Notes: a model not told the origin generated them from the letters alone. 44,226 bases of DNA from a virus (UHGV-0346409); one strand, 5' to 3'. Positions 5,518-17,139 are shown, counted from the first letter of the stretch. Numbers and translations: made by a program.

Positions 5518-5891
5518 AACACCTGTTCACCACAACCGGGAGCGCACTCCGCCATTTCAAAATTTAACGACAAAGCTCAAAGTTGAGTCGATGAAGTGCG
5601 CTCTCGTGTTGTAGCCAGGACTCTTCCCTGGTGGTCACACCGTATCGCCTTGATGGTGAATCAATCGCTCATACCTGGCTGTGGCTTGCACATTCCGGCT
5701 ACCTGCTATGGAGACAACGCGTTAAGGCTCCGCTTCCATCCAGACCGCTTCGACACATGTGCCATATGCCGGCGAAGTCTTTCCCTCTGTCATCGTGTTG
5801 GCGCCGACGCGCAAAATTTGATGCCGTCTTTCCGGCTGTCAGAACGTGTTTCTGAACAACTGCCGCTGGGTAAGCGTTGTTGATGAAAGTG

Positions 5892-5920
5892 ACTTTACAA
5901 TTTGTATTTGTAATGGTCAA
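5892..5920 (-). promoter_or_regulatory. Candidate PL promoter with embedded operator (OL)
   Basis: Minus strand reads TTGACC-17 nt-TAAAGT. The 17-bp operator TACAATTTGTATTTGTA (5896..5912) sits between -35 and -10 and matches the OR operator consensus TACAA-N7-TTGTA. Confidence 0.55.
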
Positions 5921-6551: not shown

Positions 6552-6782
6552 ATGGATAAACAACTGCAAGACAAAATTCTTTCCGTAATGAGTCAATCCG
6601 AGTTAGGGCGGCGATTAGGGAAAAAACCACAAACGGTAAGCCTCTGGTTCAAAGGAAGGGTTCCCGGTGAAGAGGTTTTGCGCACATCTGAAGCTCTTGA
6701 ATGGCGCGTGACCCCCCATGATCTTAGACCGGATCTTTACCCAAACCCAGATGACAGCTTGCCTAAAACGAAAGCAGCTTAA
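6552..6782 (+). CDS. Cro/YdaS-like small HTH regulator
   Basis: AAGGAG lies 6 nt upstream of the ATG at 6552. The sequence SQSELGRRLGKKPQTVSLWFKG...VTPHDLRPDLYP resembles the YdaS family. Confidence 0.75.
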   Translation: MDKQLQDKILSVMSQSELGRRLGKKPQTVSLWFKGRVPGEEVLRTSEALEWRVTPHDLRPDLYPNPDDSLPKTKAA

Positions 6783-6840: not shown

Positions 6841-7317
6841 ATGGAAAACCAAGAGGAATTACAAAAAGAGATTTTGACCTGGGCGGCAAGGGCAGGGCAG
6901 GAACTCGTCACGATTGAAATCTGCCGGGCCTAGTTCAGTCAGGGACGCAATGATGAGTTGAGACTACATGAATTTGAGGACGCGGACGGCAATGTGGACT
7001 GGAGAGCCATCAACAACAATCGGCAGAAAATCTTTCGCTGGTTACGTGGCGAGACAACGGCGGCGCGCCGAAAAACTCAGGTGCTGGCCAGTGTGATGAA
7101 AGCCGTGCTACCCGCAGAACGGCGGGCACGTCTGGAGTCGCCGGGCGATCCCGTTTTGCTGGCAACGCTGGCGGCAAAAGAAGGGGTGGAAGCGATTAAC
7201 GCTGTACATCTCCACTTCGCGCCAGAGTTAACTATCCAGGAAATTGACGAAGCAATAGCGGCGCTGGTAGCGACGCGAGGAGCAGTGATACGCACTGCGC
7301 AAGACCACCATGCATGA
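6841..7317 (+). pseudogene. ydaT/CII-like regulator interrupted by an in-frame amber (TAG 6931..6933)
   Basis: ATG 6841 has a strong AGGAG RBS and 30 codons run up to the TAG. The same frame continues into ORF 6958..7317. KIFRWLRGET and VLPAERRARL match my recollection of Rac YdaT. Confidence 0.7.
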
Positions 7318-7583: not shown

Positions 7584-8648
7584 ATGAGTCGTTTGCTGAT
7601 TAACGAAAACCCCCTTCAGGTCCTGCCCACGTTGGCATGCACTATAGGGTTGAATGAAGCCATCGTTCTACAGCAAATCCACTACTGGCTGAATTCATCT
7701 CAAAATTTCTTCGAAAATCGCCACTGGGTGTACAACAGTGTGACCGATTGGCAAGAACAATTCCCGTTCTGGAGCGAGTCGACAATAAAACGCGTGCTGG
7801 CCAATCTGGAAAAATTGAATGTGGTATTTACTGGGAACTTTAACAGTGATGCCTGGGATAAAACCAAGTGGTATTCAATCAATTATGCCCAGTTATGTAA
7901 GATTGAAGAGACAACATTCCCTGTGGCCAATCGATTAGGTCAAGTTGACCCAATCGAAGAGGTCAATGTGACCCAAGCATCAGGTCAAGTTGACCCATGC
8001 GCTAAGGTCAAAATGACCCAATCTCTTACAGAGAATACAACAGAGAGTACTACAGAGATAAAAGATCCCCCTTACCCCCAAAAGGGGGAGGGCGAGGAAA
8101 TCATTCTCGCTGACGCTCAAAAAGCTCTGAACTACTACAACGAGAAAGTCGGTACACGCTGCCGCGATGTTAAACCGTTTGTCATGCTGCTGACTGCCAC
8201 CACCACCCGCGCTGGTTACAGCGTGGCTGAGATTCAGTTAGTAATTCGTTGGGTTATTGCGACATGGCGCCGTCGTAGCGGAAGCGTGCCGAAACCTGCG
8301 AACATTTGCCGCGTAAACCGGTTTGACGGATATCTGGCTGACGCTGAGGCGTGGGCCACTGCTGAGGCTGCCGTTGACCCTGCTGAAGTTGTGAAGAGCT
8401 ACAACGAGATTCTGGGCGACCTGCTACCTATAGCTGAAATTGATACTGACCGCCGTCGGGCAATCCTGCGCCTGCTGGCACATATGCGCACGCAAACTCT
8501 TGGCGCATTTATCGGCTACTTCGAAAAATTCCGCGATAACGCCCCAGACTTCTATTTCGGCGGCGAATATCGCACCGGCTGGCGGGCAGGGTTTGATTAC
8601 CTGATGAAGCCAGAAACACTGCGTAAAACCAGGGAAGGGGCATTATGA
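7584..8648 (+). CDS. Replication initiator (lambda O-like position; conserved phage C-terminal domain)
   Basis: The N-terminal region is like phage replisome organisers and there are internal iterons. The C-terminal segment YYNEKVGTRCRD...VIRWVIATW resembles the conserved phage C-terminus family. Start chosen at MSRLLINE. Confidence 0.72.
   Translation: MSRLLINENPLQVLPTLACTIGLNEAIVLQQIHYWLNSSQNFFENRHWVYNSVTDWQEQFPFWSESTIKRVLANLEKLNVVFTGNFNSDAWDKTKWYSINYAQLCKIEETTFPVANRLGQVDPIEEVNVTQASGQVDPCAKVKMTQSLTENTTESTTEIKDPPYPQKGEGEEIILADAQKALNYYNEKVGTRCRDVKPFVMLLTATTTRAGYSVAEIQLVIRWVIATWRRRSGSVPKPANICRVNRFDGYLADAEAWATAEAAVDPAEVVKSYNEILGDLLPIAEIDTDRRRAILRLLAHMRTQTLGAFIGYFEKFRDNAPDFYFGGEYRTGWRAGFDYLMKPETLRKTREGAL
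7938..8020. repeat. Candidate ori: four iterons GGTCAANNTGACCCA at 7938, 7961, 7983 and 8006
   Basis: Read directly. Spacing is 22-23 bp, each iteron is internally palindromic, and an A/T-rich tract follows. The arrangement is like lambda ori inside gene O. Confidence 0.7.
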
Positions 8649-12583: not shown

Positions 12584-13507
12584 TTATTGGTTTCTGAGGA
12601 AAGCGATTCTTGAAAGGGTCATTTGCGTCTGGCAGTCGACCATTTTCTTGACTTCAGCATCTGTTCCCTGCATTGAAACTTTACCGCACATAGCATCCTT
12701 AGTTTTGATCCACTGACGCTGAGAAGGCAGCAACTCTTTTTTCTTCGCCGGCGTTAACCTGCCCCAGACTGTATTCAAATCAGAGTCAGCATTCGCAAAT
12801 GCCATTCGGGACTGATCAAGGCTTTCAGCTTTTTGCGGCTGAAGTTGTGCCTGCCTCTCTATTTGCTTCTCCGCCTCATACCTGGCCTGTTCCTGTGCCC
12901 TGAGTTGCACCTGTTGTTCCGCTTCAATTTGACTCTGTTGGGCATCCTTAGCCTGCTGGATTTTCTGCTGCTCAACGATCGGGTTGATAATGGAAAGCGA
13001 TGTCAGTAAAGCGGCGCCCACTGATATCGGATTATCAGAAGAGGTTTTTACAAAAACGTTTTTCTGATCGTCGGTCGCCTGCACGGTGTAGGTGATACGT
13101 TTTGAAAAGGCGTTTGCGTTGTTCTCCAAAAACAGATTTTCCATTTGCTTATCGAGATTACGATTAAAATTCTTTCGGTAAGCATCAGAAAGCTGGATGT
13201 ACTCGTTCGCAGGTAGAGTCATCGTCACGGTCCCTTCACAAGTTTTCATTGTGCTGCCCGTGTCACTTGATGTTGTGGAGATTTCAGAGACGGCTAGTTT
13301 GATCTTGTCCAGTGTGCTTCGTTTGGTCTGATTAGTGACATCAGGGTATTTATCGACCTGTTCAGAGAGTCCTTCATAAGCAGATTTTTTTAATAAATCC
13401 ATGAGAGCTGATTGGGTCATTTCCGAAGAACAACCGATCTCATCTTTTTTGTTATCACAGCCTGTAAGGGCAATGGCGAGTAAGAGTACTGAGTATTTTA
13501 ATCTCAT
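12584..13507 (-). CDS. Lipoprotein with C-terminal DUF1311 (LprI-like) domain
   Basis: Lipobox LLAIALTGC, a Q/E-rich coiled middle, and the C-terminal segment LNTVWGRL...QRQWIKTKDAMCG typical of DUF1311. Confidence 0.72.
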   Translation of the reverse strand: MRLKYSVLLLAIALTGCDNKKDEIGCSSEMTQSALMDLLKKSAYEGLSEQVDKYPDVTNQTKRSTLDKIKLAVSEISTTSSDTGSTMKTCEGTVTMTLPANEYIQLSDAYRKNFNRNLDKQMENLFLENNANAFSKRITYTVQATDDQKNVFVKTSSDNPISVGAALLTSLSIINPIVEQQKIQQAKDAQQSQIEAEQQVQLRAQEQARYEAEKQIERQAQLQPQKAESLDQSRMAFANADSDLNTVWGRLTPAKKKELLPSQRQWIKTKDAMCGKVSMQGTDAEVKKMVDCQTQMTLSRIAFLRNQ

Positions 13508-13848: not shown

Positions 13849-14133
13849 TTAATTTCAGTGTGGAATTATTCCCTGCTGTTAATAACCATGGCTCTATATG
13901 GCACCGAGCGGACTAGTTAACTTGCCTGAAAGCCGCTATGAGTGAGGAGCGAATATTGGCACGATAGGATACCTGAACCATTTTTTGGACATGCGCTAAA
14001 AGCGAATGATTAGTTTTATCGGAATATTTACAGTATACTTACAAGGCAAGCTTGGCGTACCGTCTTGGGCGAGATTGCTTAAATTATTTTGTGGATATAT
14101 CATTCAAACAAAAGATAATAAAATGAGGTTGTT

Positions 14134-14331
14134 ATGTCATATATTCGCGTAGAGAAAGATGGCCTTCAGTATGAAGCAGAATACTTCCGTGAAGAGGATA
14201 TGGTCACAGTCTTTGGGGTTAGAGGAGGGCATTCCAGCGTGGTTCTAAATGGAATGACAGAAGTCGCGGCTGCTCGTACTGCGTTACGAAATCTTATTAG
14301 AGAAAATCAGGTTGATCCTCTAACTGATTAA
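14134..14331 (+). CDS. Hypothetical small protein
   Basis: 65-aa ORF with a GAGG RBS, in the AT-rich island. Confidence 0.45.
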   Translation: MSYIRVEKDGLQYEAEYFREEDMVTVFGVRGGHSSVVLNGMTEVAAARTALRNLIRENQVDPLTD

Positions 14332-14535
14332 AAATAAGCCATCTTAACTGAGAGCATATTTTGATATAATTTAGATTAAATCTATTTTGAAGGTTAGTTT
14401 GGGATGAGAAGATTACATCAAAACCGTTATTACTAGCAATAAGTTGTGTAAATCAAATAATACATAATCAGGTGGTAATATATACTAAGCGTAGTAAAGT
14501 TTTTATATATTCCTGTAACTTTGTGAGAAACTTCC

Positions 14536-15201
14536 ATGAAAGCCGACAACTTAAGAATTATAGAGAATGGCAAATATGTTTTCGATATGTTCTTGGATAC
14601 TGGTGAATTTTACTATACAAGTCATGCCTTTGACACGAGAGAAGATGCAAAAAGCTGGATGGAAGAATGGCAGATTTGGGCAAATAATGTATCGAGTGGG
14701 AAAGTAAGTAGTATTTATTATATTTTACAAGTGCCTGATACTTGGGCCGGTTCTTCAGATAAAAATAACCCTTACTCGGGACTTTATGTGAAAATAGGGC
14801 GTTCCAATAATGTGCTAAAAAGGTTGTCTAACCTGCAGACAGGTGCATTTGGTCAATTAATATTACACGCTTTGGAACCAGGTGGTTCAGAAAAAGAAAA
14901 CTATCTTCATGAAAAATTTAGCAACGAAAGACGTCAAGGTGAATGGTTTGTTTGTACTAAGGAACTTACCAAGCATATATTTACAACATGGTTTAAAAAC
15001 AAAATGCTCCCACCAGAACATCAAATAAAAATAATGCAGCTCGCAGAAAGAATAGGTATTTATTCGCATGTTCATACACTAATGGGGGGGAAGCCAGACT
15101 TAGTAAACCCATCTATTAGTGAACCTTGGGAATGCGAAAAATATGTTTTGGTTGATATGATTTATAGCTCTTTAGCAAAGCAAGTTAATCATAAAAAATA
15201 A
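14536..15201 (+). CDS. T5orf172 (MUG113, GIY-YIG-like) domain protein
   Basis: LYVKIGRSNNVLKRLSNLQTG...ENYLHEKFSNERRQGEWF matches the T5orf172 signature KIG.T.N...R...LQTG...E..LH..F...R..GEWF. Confidence 0.7.
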   Translation: MKADNLRIIENGKYVFDMFLDTGEFYYTSHAFDTREDAKSWMEEWQIWANNVSSGKVSSIYYILQVPDTWAGSSDKNNPYSGLYVKIGRSNNVLKRLSNLQTGAFGQLILHALEPGGSEKENYLHEKFSNERRQGEWFVCTKELTKHIFTTWFKNKMLPPEHQIKIMQLAERIGIYSHVHTLMGGKPDLVNPSISEPWECEKYVLVDMIYSSLAKQVNHKK

Positions 15202-15288
15202 AGTGTTACATTTTAACTATACAATTATTGATTCACTAATGAAGAGGTGATTTAGACGTATGAAGTTTTAATAAGCTCCAAGAATATT

Positions 15289-15433
15289 TTGTCATACATG
15301 GGTTAAAGAGTTATATAATAATATCTGCTTCTGGAACACAGCAGACAAGCACCTGCAGATAAAGGTCTGCTGAGAGCGAGAAGCGGATCATACGTTGGAA
15401 GTTGTTTAGGCAAATACGTTATAAACGTATTTG
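15289..15433 (+). promoter_or_regulatory. Candidate promoter (TTGTCA-17-TATATA) and structured 5' leader of the 134-aa gene
   Basis: Mutually exclusive hairpins: TCTGCT/AGCAGA (15324..15345) versus CAGCAGAC/GTCTGCTG (15339..15372). Also a perfect 10-bp-arm palindrome CAAATACGTT-ATA-AACGTATTTG (15411..15433). Confidence 0.4.
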
Positions 15434-15521
15434 ATTAAATTTACTTGGATCATAGTCTTCAATAACGCTTTATTATATTGTTTTTCATGCAGCAAACAGG
15501 TTCACAGGTAGGTAATAAGCT

Positions 15522-15926
15522 ATGAGTGGATGGAAAGAGCCTTTTACATTAGCAGAACAGATACAATTAGCATTAAATTTAGGTTATGAGGCTGTACCAG
15601 ATGAAGAGGCATATACTGGGGCATACTTCATTAAAGGTGGTAAGAAGTGGATCTTTAACATCATCGGTCTCAAAAAGACATTGAATATATCTTCAGATGA
15701 TGAACTAAGAGGGCAGGATTATGATGTTGATATGTATTTCGAAATTCGCCAAAATTGGGCACAATACCAAGATATGATCTTTGGAAGCGAAGATATCACT
15801 CCTTCACCTAAAAATGAACTTACTTCAATTTACCATGACCTGCAGGTAACGGATGAACCCAGGGAAATGGTGTATCTTTCTGATGGGATGTGGCTGGATC
15901 CCAACGGACGAATTGTACAACGATAG
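15522..15926 (+). CDS. Hypothetical acidic protein
   Basis: 134-aa ORF. By my count about 23 D/E versus 12 K/R. No recognisable family. Confidence 0.55.
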   Translation: MSGWKEPFTLAEQIQLALNLGYEAVPDEEAYTGAYFIKGGKKWIFNIIGLKKTLNISSDDELRGQDYDVDMYFEIRQNWAQYQDMIFGSEDITPSPKNELTSIYHDLQVTDEPREMVYLSDGMWLDPNGRIVQR

Positions 15927-16035
15927 CACTCGAACACACTCAGTAATCGTCTATAAGGCCAGCACTTGTTACTTGGTCATTTGGGGTTGCTGGTCTTCTC
16001 CATTAAATCGACTAAAGTCTGTTCCATAGAGAGAG

Positions 16036-16641
16036 TTACTTGCGTTTAAAAAGGTATTTTGTCACGACCAGCACGAGGCCGAATACCTCTGTCAAAGTAC
16101 CGCCCATGTACAACTGTAGTGTTAAATCCTCAAATTCCAGCTTACCTGCGCCGTCGGCAATAAATACACCATTCATTATCAGAAGTTGGCAAGCAAGGAT
16201 AATCAGGAACCATTTCCCGTATCGTTTTTTTAGAGCGATTTCTGCTTCAAAATCTTTGTTGTTGAGTTGTTTGCGCTCATGCTCGGTATCAAGTGAATTC
16301 ACCTGTTTCACAGATGTGAACTCGGTCAAGATTTTACTCTCAGTACGGGTGACTTGTTGAGAGGGTGTAACAGTTGGAATTCTTTTGCTAGACGCAGCTA
16401 CAGCCATTTTGCGAGCTTCGGCAGCTCTTTTTCTGGCTATTCCGCGAATACGGACAGCCGTTTTTTTGGGGGCGTGCGAAACCTTTGGCTGAGGTGAAGT
16501 TTCGTCAGGAGACTGAACCGGGGTTTCATCGTCCCCCGGCTCAACCTCTTCTGCTAACTGACGGTGTAGGTTGAGGGAATCCTTCAGTCGGCGTGCAACT
16601 TCCTGTTTGAAACGGCTGTTAAAATCGTCATCCGATGGCAT
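16036..16641 (-). CDS. Membrane protein: charged, low-complexity N-terminal region plus two C-terminal TM helices
   Basis: 201 aa. The hydrophobic segments are WFLIILACQLLIMNGVFIA and TLTEVFGLVLVVTKYLF. It sits 9 nt downstream of the ImmA/IrrE gene. Confidence 0.7.
   Translation of the reverse strand: MPSDDDFNSRFKQEVARRLKDSLNLHRQLAEEVEPGDDETPVQSPDETSPQPKVSHAPKKTAVRIRGIARKRAAEARKMAVAASSKRIPTVTPSQQVTRTESKILTEFTSVKQVNSLDTEHERKQLNNKDFEAEIALKKRYGKWFLIILACQLLIMNGVFIADGAGKLEFEDLTLQLYMGGTLTEVFGLVLVVTKYLFKRK
16037..16117. repeat. Intact partner of the repeat at 12436..12515 (3' end of the 2-TM gene)
   Basis: Aligned by eye; roughly 93 percent identity by my count. Confidence 0.8.
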
Positions 16642-16650
16642 TCTAAAGCG

Positions 16651-17139
16651 TTACCCCAACCTCAAGTTCTTTAAACGATAAGTCATCGCATCGTCAGATA
16701 CGCCAAAATAATGCGCCATTATATAACTTGGTTGGCCGTCAGCGTGCAGTTTTCTGACCTCATCAACCGGCATCAGAAGTTCTGCTGCGAACTTGTTCGC
16801 AAAAATTTCATCAGGATGCGTTCCGGCGCTTGCGGTTTCGCCACGTAAATCAACGTACTCATATTCATCACTATGCGATGCTTGCCGGGCGATGTAATGC
16901 CCCAACTCATGCCCACATGAAAAACGTTGACGAACTTTGTTGTCATCACTGTTTAGAAAGATCGCTGGATCTTGATCTTTTTGTTTAATCAGTGCGCCAG
17001 AAACTTTCCCAGGAAGATCGGTAATAAAAACATCTAATCCCATGTCGTGAGCAATTTTCGCTGGATCAACAGGGAAACCACGCCCGCACCAGAACGTGTC
17101 CAGCACTCGCCGGGCGTGCTCTCTTGGGTTGGTAGCCAT
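16651..17139 (-). CDS. ImmA/IrrE-family (DUF955, M78-like) zinc metallopeptidase, stand-alone without HTH
   Basis: HELGH motif in SCGHELGHYIARQ with a downstream ...FANKFAAELLMP. GGAGGAG RBS. Confidence 0.8.
   Translation of the reverse strand: MATNPREHARRVLDTFWCGRGFPVDPAKIAHDMGLDVFITDLPGKVSGALIKQKDQDPAIFLNSDDNKVRQRFSCGHELGHYIARQASHSDEYEYVDLRGETASAGTHPDEIFANKFAAELLMPVDEVRKLHADGQPSYIMAHYFGVSDDAMTYRLKNLRLG

What the first reader, a model, noticed from the sequence alone, without database searches (positions are those of the whole stretch)
14134..15201. T5orf172 (GIY-YIG-like) protein with novel flanking domains in the AT-rich cargo
The 221-aa protein has a clear T5orf172/MUG113 core, about residues 80-150: KIGRSNN...RLSNLQTG...LHEKF...RRQGEWF. 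Roughly 75 aa on the N-terminal side and 70 aa on the C-terminal side are unassigned. A 65-aa orphan lies 200 nt upstream in the same orientation. T5orf172 domains are nuclease-related modules that recur in phage-host conflict loci. A compact single-gene version in a prophage cargo slot is a plausible stand-alone defence or exclusion nuclease, possibly partnered with the small ORF.
Basis: partly seen in the sequence, partly recalled or inferred. Interest (0 to 1): 0.5.

Follow-up and report, generated by a model that had tools for sequence, protein, structure and literature searches.

The report
Stand-alone T5orf172 nuclease, defence candidate
A small, rare and uncharacterised DNA-cutting enzyme sits in a swappable accessory slot of an E. 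coli prophage; its relatives elsewhere sit beside known anti-phage systems or travel as single-gene integron cassettes, so it is probably a self-sufficient anti-phage nuclease, but nobody has tested it.

Summary
The 65-aa ORF (14134..14331) and the 221-aa ORF (14536..15201) exist. The latter passes the Pfam MUG113/T5orf172 thresholds and lies in a 35-37% GC insert of a lambdoid E. coli prophage.

- **Corrections.** The GIY-YIG fold starts near residue 58, so the N-flank is about 55 aa. The 65-aa ORF is not an orphan: it has 34 homologue clusters and dN/dS of 0.12-0.21.
- **The family.** The 221-aa protein belongs to a rare, full-length-conserved family. It occurs in 18 of 5,426 E. coli genomes and 17 of 185,579 species genomes. 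The catalytic Tyr/Arg/His/Glu residues are invariant. The N-domain is acidic and fast-evolving; the C-region is basic and helical. No solved or viral predicted structure matches the whole protein.
- **Contexts.** It is a one-gene cassette in three Vibrio superintegrons. Elsewhere it sits beside PARIS, Shango, an Eco29kI R-M system, a DRT and an AriA-like ATPase. In E. coli E24377A the same prophage slot holds PD-T4-3/CMoRE.
- **The small ORF.** The 65-aa gene accompanies only the closest (≥90% identical) homologues. It usually occurs without the nuclease, for example after Lamassu.

Verdict: a plausible stand-alone defence nuclease and a new variant of a known kind. It is untested, and the obligate small-ORF partnership is not supported.

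The parts
13909..16029 (.). Variable AT-rich cargo insert in the prophage slot between the LprI-family gene (12584..13507, -) and the 201-aa/ImmA pair (16036..17139, -)
   Evidence: Only 18 of 5,426 E. coli genomes carry the whole 2.6-kb query. 444 genomes matched part of it; in the listed partial matches that part was the left flank (query 1-409), giving a left junction near 13909. A separate search found the right flank in 452 genomes, with the right junction at 16014-16029. GC is 0.35-0.37. Other cargo occupies the same slot: PD-T4-3 plus HNH in E24377A and a 232-aa unknown in ST131.
14040..15385 (+). About 1.35-kb module (65-aa gene, T5orf172 gene and 3' hairpin) shared at about 90% DNA identity with unrelated islands in Enterobacter and Citrobacter
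   Evidence: In the alignment of the window with E. ludwigii L007, homology starts at about 14040 and ends at about 15385. The same right end is seen in L025 and L026.
14075..14103 (+). Promoter-like TTGCTT-17 nt-TATCAT upstream of the 65-aa gene
   Evidence: Read directly from the sequence. The stretch is conserved in L007 and L018. The tool's consensus scan did not list this site, so it is an inference.
14134..14331 (+). 65-aa protein gene: a real, independently mobile small gene of unknown function
14331..14364 (+). Decayed terminator-like hairpin just after the 65-aa stop codon
   Evidence: The hairpin is strong in loci where no T5orf172 gene follows (L014 -13.5 kcal/mol, z -5.0; L018 -15.6 kcal/mol, z -7.1). 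It is weak here (-6.3 kcal/mol, z -2.8) and absent in L007. Homology among the 65-aa loci ends shortly after it.
14536..14700 (+). T5orf172 protein, residues 1-55: acidic N-terminal domain of three strands and a helix
14701..14955 (+). T5orf172 protein, residues 56-140: GIY-YIG (T5orf172/MUG113) catalytic core with a 17-residue insertion
14956..15201 (+). T5orf172 protein, residues 141-221 plus stop: basic, mainly helical C-terminal region
   Evidence: AF2 elements H142-155, H160-183, H212-220. pI 9.1. Invariant H147, L158, P159, N191, P192, W198 and D207. No Pfam domain and no conserved Cys.
15323..15388 (+). Imperfect inverted repeat (24-nt arms) at the exact right end of the shared module
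   Evidence: Inverted repeat I1. Fold -24.5 kcal/mol, z -2.9. The sequence is conserved in L007, L025 (beyond an IS insertion) and L026, where homology stops. No Rfam match.
15522..15926 (+). 134-aa gene: a separate accessory module in the same insert, not part of the nuclease module
   Evidence: It lies outside the shared module. It has its own family in Proteus, Providencia, Serratia and Citrobacter. It is found at prophage ends beside ApeA-HEPN or at the Ogr/gpD end of a P2-like prophage. No family hits.

Best explanation
The 221-aa gene encodes a self-sufficient GIY-YIG-class (T5orf172) DNA endonuclease. The prophage carries it as an accessory ('moron') gene that protects the lysogen against other phages or invading DNA.

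**Shown.**
- It is a member of a rare, horizontally mobile family.
- The whole three-part architecture is conserved.
- The catalytic residues are intact.
- It moves as a single gene.
- It lies in defence hotspots.

**Inferred.**
- Catalysis uses Y61/Y62, R96, H125 and E136.
- The basic C-terminal helical region holds DNA.
- The acidic, fast-diverging N-terminal domain gates or targets the enzyme, either by autoinhibition or by sensing a phage feature.
- There is no methyltransferase or conserved partner. Self/non-self discrimination therefore most likely rests on a phage-specific DNA feature (a modified base or a replication/recombination structure) or on a phage-triggered release of inhibition. 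This would resemble the single-protein type IV enzyme CMoRE/PD-T4-3, which occupies the same prophage slot in other strains.
- The 65-aa gene upstream is a separate hitch-hiking island gene, not a required subunit.
For: - **Domain and fold.** Pfam MUG113/T5orf172 hits are above threshold. The AF2 model is confident (pLDDT 89.6, pTM 0.85) and matches the SLX1 GIY-YIG fold.
- **Selection.** All 28 homologues keep Y61, Y62, KIG, R96, H125 and GEWF. dN/dS is 0.11.
- **Single-gene autonomy.** attC repeats bracket the gene alone in V. vulnificus (L009, cassette about 0.8 kb), V. pacinii (797 bp) and V. penaeicida. Clustering of neighbours across about 20 contexts found no conserved partner.
- **Defence neighbourhoods.** AriA/AriB; SngB 1e-186 and SngC 8e-279; Eco29kI plus MTase; RT-DnaG-like DRT and an AriA/HEC-01A-like ATPase; DUF3800 = PDC-M04A in two loci; a CP4-57-like island.
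- **Slot equivalence.** E24377A has PD-T4-3 (5.7e-138) between the same flanks. PD-T4-3 is the single-protein GIY-YIG type IV enzyme CMoRE (PMC12923530).
- **Domain properties.** N-domain pI 4.45 and least conserved; C-region pI 9.1.
- **Prior listing.** PF10544 is listed among defence-island families in a table of PMC7251935.
Against: - There is no phenotype, expression or biochemical data.
- PADLOC gives only E=0.0037 to the candidate PDC-S57, over the core alone.
- In phages, T5orf172 genes are best known as homing endonucleases or domesticated derivatives (PMC10448857, PMC8263062).
- About half of the distant contexts are uninformative (amidase, RmuC, LuxR, HAD).
- The type IV-like or gated mechanism is analogy only. 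There is no sequence similarity to CMoRE.
- The roles assigned to the two flanks rest on charge, conservation and a predicted model.
Confidence: 0.5

Rival explanations
1. It is a free-standing homing endonuclease gene. On this view it is a selfish element that cuts gene-less alleles of related phages and copies itself in, like the T5orf172 homing genes of ICP1, T5-like and Vibrio phages.
For: - T5orf172 is the commonest putative homing-endonuclease domain in ICP1, and nuclease genes mark boundaries of genetic exchange between phages (PMC10448857).
- The gene sits at a mosaic boundary of a lambdoid prophage, in a slot that also holds an HNH gene in another strain.
- The module has sharp, conserved ends.
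- The core is similar to proteins of phages HK106 and Chlobot.
Against: - Most homologues are not in phages: integron cassettes, chromosomal islands, and sites next to R-M, PARIS and Shango.
- There is no CapR/DUF723/DUF4397 zinc-finger or other recognisable DNA-targeting module, and no conserved cysteines.
- It is not beside essential phage genes.
- No empty target allele was seen. Gene-less prophages carry other cargo in the slot.
- Each E. coli genome that has it has one copy, and it is present in only 18 of 5,426 genomes.
Confidence: 0.12
2. It serves the phage itself. It could be a nuclease used in lytic growth or against competitors and satellites (Odn-like), or an accessory to replication or recombination. 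It would then not be a lysogen-protecting defence gene.
For: - The gene lies between the replication module and Q, and it points in the direction of early rightward transcription.
- T5orf172 cores occur in phage proteins annotated as replication initiators or helicase loaders, such as Mx8 p19 and a mycobacteriophage DnaD-like protein.
- ICP1 Odn is a T5orf172 nuclease that destroys a satellite (PMC8263062).
- One homologue follows an inovirus Zot gene.
Against: - The same protein is kept in non-phage settings, including superintegrons and chromosomal islands.
- It is dispensable: more than 95% of related prophages lack it.
- The phage matches cover only the 65-80-residue core (TMq ≤0.37).
Confidence: 0.15
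3. It is the toxin of a two-gene toxin-antitoxin or abortive-infection pair, with the 65-aa protein as its antitoxin or regulator.
For: - The 65-aa gene is upstream on the same strand in five loci and is under purifying selection.
- The hairpin after it is decayed exactly where the nuclease follows, which would allow read-through.
- The acidic N-domain and the 65-aa protein are both small strand-plus-helix folds.
Against: - The 65-aa gene is absent from every homologue below 90% identity, including three single-gene cassettes.
- About 92 E. coli genomes and several other genera carry it without the nuclease: after Lamassu lmuB, before an FRG gene, or alone.
- It has its own promoter-like site, and the gap to the nuclease gene is 204 nt.
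- There is no profile similarity to the N-domain.
Confidence: 0.08

Closest known systems
PD-T4-3 / CMoRE (single-protein GIY-YIG type IV restriction endonuclease; PMC12923530)
   Same: It is a single polypeptide with a GIY-YIG-superfamily nuclease plus non-catalytic sensing parts and no methyltransferase. It is carried in the very same prophage slot, between the LprI gene and downstream cargo, in E. coli E24377A. CMoRE has an inhibitory acidic loop; here there is an acidic N-domain.
   Different: There is no sequence similarity (BLAST E=1.0) and no PADLOC PD-T4-3 hit. The core belongs to the T5orf172/MUG113 branch rather than the LEM-3-like one. The nuclease is central rather than N-terminal. 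The motif is 'SIYYIL', not GIYxY. CMoRE's C-terminal 5hmC-sensing domain was not detected.
PADLOC candidate PDC-S57 (single-gene T5orf172 defence candidate, untested)
   Same: It is a single gene of similar length (profiles of 212-221 positions) with a T5orf172-type core. It is the only PADLOC family that matches the core.
   Different: The match is weak (E=0.0037 and 0.024) and limited to the core (residues 83-157 against profile 18-98). The core is N-terminal in PDC-S57, so the flanks differ.
T5orf172 homing endonucleases of ICP1, T5-like and Vibrio phages, and their derivatives Odn and CapR (PMC10448857, PMC8263062, PMC8096241)
   Same: They share the Pfam domain. PMC10448857 reports that the activity of at least one T5orf172 nuclease depended on a glutamate inferred to be catalytic; E136 here is assumed to be its equivalent. 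They are also involved in conflicts between mobile elements.
   Different: Those proteins pair the nuclease with CapR/DUF723/DUF4397 zinc-finger DNA-binding repeats, and they sit beside essential phage genes. This family has neither feature and is mostly outside phages.
Structure-specific GIY-YIG nucleases (SLX1 / At-HIGLE)
   Different: Identity is only 10-12%. These are eukaryotic repair enzymes with a RING/PHD partner domain and an SLX4 subunit. There is no similarity in the flanks.

Membership tests
GIY-YIG superfamily, T5orf172 (PF10544) / MUG113 (PF13455) branch | Profile score above Pfam's gathering threshold | tested here: met
   MUG113 scores 39.9 bits against a cut-off of 22.3. T5orf172 scores 30.8 bits against a cut-off of 20.
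GIY-YIG superfamily, T5orf172 (PF10544) / MUG113 (PF13455) branch | GIY and YIG strands plus the catalytic Arg and Glu | tested here: met
   'SIYYIL' (Y61/Y62), 'VKIG' (K86-G88), R96, H125 and E136 in 'GEWF' are all invariant in 28 homologues. The equivalence to catalytic residues comes from motif position, not from an experiment.
GIY-YIG superfamily, T5orf172 (PF10544) / MUG113 (PF13455) branch | GIY-YIG alpha/beta fold | tested here: met
PD-T4-3 / CMoRE | Match to the PD-T4-3 profile or sequence | tested here: not met
   There is no PADLOC PD-T4-3 hit at E≤1. BLAST against the E24377A PD-T4-3 gives E=1.0.
PD-T4-3 / CMoRE | N-terminal GIYxY-YIG nuclease plus a C-terminal modified-cytosine-sensing domain | tested here: not met
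PD-T4-3 / CMoRE | Restriction of 5hmC- or glucosyl-5hmC-containing phage DNA | not testable with these tools
   This needs plaque assays with T-even phages and cleavage assays on modified DNA.
PADLOC candidate PDC-S57 | Full-length match to a PDC-S57 profile | tested here: not met
   E=0.0037 (14.9 bits) and E=0.024, covering only residues 83-157 and 78-102.
T5orf172 homing endonucleases (ICP1 type) | CapR/DUF723/DUF4397-type zinc-finger DNA-binding domain(s) attached to the nuclease | tested here: not met
   No such Pfam hits at E≤1. There are no conserved cysteines in the family alignment. The custom CapR profile was not available.
T5orf172 homing endonucleases (ICP1 type) | Location in or beside conserved essential phage genes, with gene-less target alleles | tested here: not met
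   The gene lies in an accessory slot. Gene-less prophages carry other cargo there. Most homologues are outside phages.
Toxin-antitoxin pair with the 65-aa gene | Conserved adjacent partner gene across the family | tested here: not met
   The partner is present only with ≥90%-identical copies (5 loci) and absent elsewhere. The 65-aa gene is commoner without the nuclease.
Integron gene cassette (for the Vibrio homologues) | A single ORF bounded by attC recombination sites within an array | tested here: met
   In L009, attC copies at 6909-7035 and 7707-7833 bracket the gene. In L040, copies at 5859-5907 and 6656-6704 are 797 bp apart. L029 is similar, with masked stretches. This does not apply to the window copy.

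The most novel reading that the evidence does not exclude
The family would be a new class of single-protein, methyltransferase-independent restriction-like enzyme. A T5orf172 core would be gated by a rapidly evolving acidic N-terminal domain that senses a phage component or a DNA feature. Separately, the 65-aa protein, which recurs after Lamassu lmuB and ahead of unrelated effector-like genes (T5orf172, FRG), would be a portable accessory factor shared among defence systems and not a mere bystander.
Probability: 0.15. Interest if true: 0.6.

Novelty: new variant of a known kind. Interest (0 to 1): 0.38.

Why it matters
- **A minimal system to study.** If it defends, it would be one of the smallest self-contained nuclease defences at 221 aa, with no modification partner. 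It would be the first characterised stand-alone T5orf172 defence protein that I could find. That would make it a compact system for asking how a lone nuclease tells phage DNA from host DNA.
- **A defined hotspot.** The locus marks a swappable hotspot in a widespread E. coli prophage family, present in about 450 of 5,426 complete genomes, including ST131. The slot alternately carries PD-T4-3/CMoRE, this gene or unknown cargo, so it is a useful place to mine further systems.
- **If it does not defend.** It would be an ordinary accessory nuclease of mobile elements.

Tried and rejected
1. **Truncated or split longer gene.** phrog_8130 has 434 profile positions and the protein maps to 99-333. Rejected: 28 homologues from many phyla are 211-242 aa and align end to end.
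3. **DUF3800 (PDC-M04A) as a general partner.** It was found only in L013 and, split into two ORFs, in L008.
4. **The 151-aa upstream ORF of Enterobacter cloacae as a 65-aa equivalent.** No similarity. It recurs only in L026.
5. **Independent occurrence of the C-terminal region.** P0091 appears, from reading its sequence, to be a transposase-like N-terminal part fused to a C-terminal fragment of the family, and P0214 appears to be a frameshifted fragment.
6. **Structured RNA in the insert.** No Rfam match at E≤1.
7. **Terminal repeats of the module.** Only the right-end hairpin was found; no matching left end.
8. **Phage and plasmid collections.** There was no DNA match in phages. Only core-level protein matches were found in phages. 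Nothing was found in plasmids.
9. **Other look-ups.** No NCBIfam family. No sequence relative in the PDB. The afdb50 fold library was unavailable.
10. **Literature.** No paper in the held library links this family or a T5orf172 cassette to a tested defence phenotype.

Full report
**1. What is there**

The window is a lambdoid prophage of E. coli integrated at a tRNA-Ser gene next to mtfA. It is identical over the 2.6 kb tested to E. coli O43 RM10042. The finding lies between the replication module (DnaB-like helicase) and the Q antiterminator.

- The 65-aa ORF (14134..14331) and the 221-aa ORF (14536..15201) are exactly as described, on the + strand and 204 nt apart.
- They sit in a stretch of 35-37% GC.
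- The 221-aa protein passes Pfam's thresholds for MUG113 (39.9 bits) and T5orf172 (30.8 bits).
- RefSeq calls it 'GIY-YIG nuclease family protein'.
- Its neighbours are a minus-strand LprI-family lipoprotein gene on the left. On the right are a 134-aa plus-strand ORF and then a minus-strand pair: a 201-aa protein and an ImmA/IrrE protease.

**2. The slot**

- Only 18 of 5,426 complete E. coli genomes carry the insert. 444 genomes matched part of the 2.6-kb query; in the listed partial matches that part was the left flank. A separate search found the right flank in 452 genomes.
- The junctions are near 13909 and 16014-16029.
- In ST131 the same slot holds a 232-aa unknown protein.
- In E24377A it holds an HNH protein and a 268-aa protein that matches PADLOC's PD-T4-3 at 5.7e-138.
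- PD-T4-3 has been characterised as CMoRE, a single-protein GIY-YIG type IV restriction enzyme for 5hmC and glucosyl-5hmC DNA (PMC12923530).
- The slot is therefore a cargo hotspot that carries a characterised defence gene in at least one strain.

**3. The protein family**

- A word-indexed search found 34 homologue clusters, nearly all 211-242 aa and aligned end to end.
- The alignment of 28 sequences (A1) has invariant Y61, Y62, K86-I87-G88, R96, H125, R132-R133 and G135-E136-W137-F138. It also has invariant residues in both flanks: W45, W48, P67, W70, G72, H147, L158-P159, N191-P192, W198 and D207.
- An exhaustive profile search of 1.84 billion representatives found 29,613 proteins sharing the core. 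Only 12 scored at E≤1e-30 (some of them fragments), so the whole architecture is rare.
- Two apparent stand-alone occurrences of a flank (P0091, P0214) look like artefacts on reading their sequences.
- A scan of one genome per species found 17 full-length loci among 185,579 species. They include Gammaproteobacteria, Cyanobacteria, a Dehalococcoidia MAG, an acidobacterial MAG and a planctomycete MAG, which is a patchy, transfer-like distribution.
- dN/dS against the E. ludwigii copy is 0.11.

**4. Structure**

- AlphaFold2 with A1 gives pLDDT 89.6 and pTM 0.85.
- The model has three parts:
  - an N-terminal three-strand-plus-helix domain (residues 1-55);
  - a core that starts with strand 59-66 ('SIYYILQV', the GIY motif), followed by a 17-residue conserved insertion, then 'VKIGRS' and the rest of the GIY-YIG fold up to about residue 140;
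  - a mainly helical C-terminal region.
- BFVD matches only the core, with TMq ≤0.37.
- A profile search of PDB sequences finds nothing.
- The N-domain is acidic (pI 4.45) and the least conserved part, down to 14% identity. The C-region is basic (pI 9.1).

**5. Contexts of homologues**

- *Three Vibrio superintegrons.* attC repeats bracket the gene alone in V. vulnificus L009 and in V. pacinii L040 and V. penaeicida L029. A one-gene cassette of about 0.8 kb argues that the protein works without a dedicated partner.
- *Enterobacter cloacae.* It lies in a chromosomal islet beside AriA/AriB (PARIS).
- *Citrobacter.* It lies directly after SngB/SngC (Shango) and before an IS element.
- *Vibrio sp. 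Of7-15.* It lies directly before an Eco29kI restriction enzyme and a C5-methyltransferase.
- *Trichormus.* It lies after an integrase and a PIN gene and before an AriA/HEC-01A-like ATPase.
- *An acidobacterial MAG.* It lies 1.7 kb from a DRT reverse transcriptase.
- *A metagenomic chromosome and Thiohalophilus.* It lies beside DUF3800 (PDC-M04A), which is intact in one and split in the other.
- *E. ludwigii.* It lies in a CP4-57-like island.
- *Colwellia.* It lies after an inovirus Zot gene.
- *Other loci.* These are uninformative.

**6. The 65-aa gene**

- It is a real gene: 34 homologue clusters, dN/dS of 0.12-0.21 and pLDDT 94.5. It has no family or fold assignment.
- All-against-all comparison of neighbours found it upstream of the nuclease only in five loci. 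All five have nuclease copies that are ≥90% identical: the window, E. whittamii, E. ludwigii, Citrobacter and Enterobacter genomosp. O.
- In these loci the pair plus a 3' hairpin forms a module of about 1.35 kb (14040..15385) with the same right end in four contexts.
- Elsewhere the small gene occurs without the nuclease:
  - 39-47 nt after lmuB of a Lamassu system in E. coli Nissle 1917 and in Xenorhabdus;
  - before an FRG/PDC-S15 gene in Providencia;
  - alone in Citrobacter;
  - in about 92 E. coli genomes that lack the nuclease.
- Homology among these loci stops just after its stop codon.
- The hairpin after the gene is strong where no nuclease follows and decayed where one does. That is the only hint of coupling.
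- It has no profile similarity to the nuclease's N-domain.
- I conclude that it is an independent island gene that travels with one sublineage of the nuclease, not a required partner.

**7. The 134-aa gene**

The 134-aa gene (15522..15926) lies outside the shared module. It has its own family at prophage ends in Proteus and Citrobacter. The insert is therefore a mosaic of three accessory modules.

**8. Mechanism**

- *Shown.* The nuclease motifs are intact and under selection. The three-part architecture is conserved. The gene is mobile on its own. It resides in defence hotspots.
- *Inferred.* It is a DNA endonuclease that protects its carrier. The basic C-region binds DNA. The acidic, fast-evolving N-domain gates or targets the enzyme.
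- *Target choice.* With no methyltransferase or conserved partner, target choice probably depends on a phage-specific DNA feature or on a phage-triggered release of inhibition, as in CMoRE.
- *Confidence.* I give the defence-nuclease reading about 0.5. I give the specific type IV-like or gated mechanism much less.
- *Rivals.*
  - Homing endonuclease (0.12). T5orf172 genes are the main putative homing genes of ICP1 and related phages (PMC10448857). This family, however, lacks their zinc-finger DNA-binding repeats and is mostly outside phages.
  - A phage-serving nuclease (0.15).
  - A toxin-antitoxin pair with the 65-aa protein (0.08).

**9. Comparison and novelty**

- Membership of the T5orf172/MUG113 branch of GIY-YIG is met.
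- Membership of PD-T4-3/CMoRE is not met.
- Membership of PADLOC's PDC-S57 is not met: the match is weak and covers the core only.
- The ICP1-type homing architecture is not met.
- Single-protein GIY-YIG defence enzymes and T5orf172 domains in conflict systems are both known. What is new is the domain arrangement and the lack of any characterised relative.
- I found no paper in the held library that tests this family.
- I rate it a new variant of a known kind, of moderate interest and easily testable.

Noticed in passing
window 16047-16933 and 17044-17076: CRISPR arrays in two E. coli genomes (NZ_CP166879, NZ_CM170158) contain sequences matching the prophage's 201-aa/ImmA operon. One is a 33-nt match at 100% identity (hits H67 and H68). 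This suggests the prophage family is, or was, targeted by E. coli CRISPR.
   Followed up: no
window 14134-14331; L052 5014-5211; L017 4065-4265; L014 5001-5198: The 65-aa gene recurs 39-47 nt after lmuB of Lamassu systems in E. coli Nissle 1917 and Xenorhabdus. In Providencia it lies ahead of an FRG (PDC-S15) gene next to a Lamassu-like CTD1/MComp1/ABC trio. It may be an unrecognised accessory of such systems, or simply a frequent island resident.
   Followed up: partly
window 14331-14364 compared with L014 5196-5233 and L018 5196-5233: The terminator-like hairpin after the 65-aa gene is strong where no T5orf172 gene follows (z -5.0 and -7.1). It is decayed where one does (window z -2.8; none in L007).
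   Followed up: partly
window 15323-15388: An imperfect inverted repeat with 24-nt arms sits at the exact right boundary of the 65-aa plus nuclease module. It is conserved in four unrelated genomic contexts, in one of them beyond an IS insertion. It has no U-tract and no Rfam match, and its role is unknown.
   Followed up: partly
window 15522-15926: The 134-aa ORF belongs to a conserved unknown family in Proteus, Providencia, Serratia, Citrobacter and Yersinia. It is found at prophage ends beside an ApeA-HEPN gene and at the Ogr/gpD end of a P2-like prophage. It is a separate candidate accessory or defence gene.
   Followed up: partly
window 16036-17139 (minus strand): An ImmA/IrrE metalloprotease (PADLOC CapP 2.4e-25) is paired with a 201-aa protein (phrog_5346) whose C-terminus looks hydrophobic, possibly membrane-spanning, on reading the sequence. 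No adjacent HTH repressor gene was seen. The pair is conserved in about 450 E. coli genomes, including ST131.
   Followed up: no
L022 3675-5560 (E. coli ST131, same slot): The ST131 version of the prophage fills the slot with about 1.2 kb of unannotated DNA and a 232-aa unknown protein (WP_000536231). That protein has only a weak PADLOC hit, to a DRT-associated TM protein at 1.8e-5.
   Followed up: partly
L007 5176-6892 (E. ludwigii island, minus strand): A second, unrelated T5orf172 protein (268 aa, similar only in the core, E=2e-6) with a 302-aa partner lies 2 kb from the homologue in the same island. Neither has a PADLOC hit.
   Followed up: no
window 12584-13507 (minus strand): A prophage-encoded LprI-family (lysozyme inhibitor) protein forms the conserved left border of the slot. 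Its N-terminus reads like a lipoprotein signal (…LTGC).
   Followed up: no
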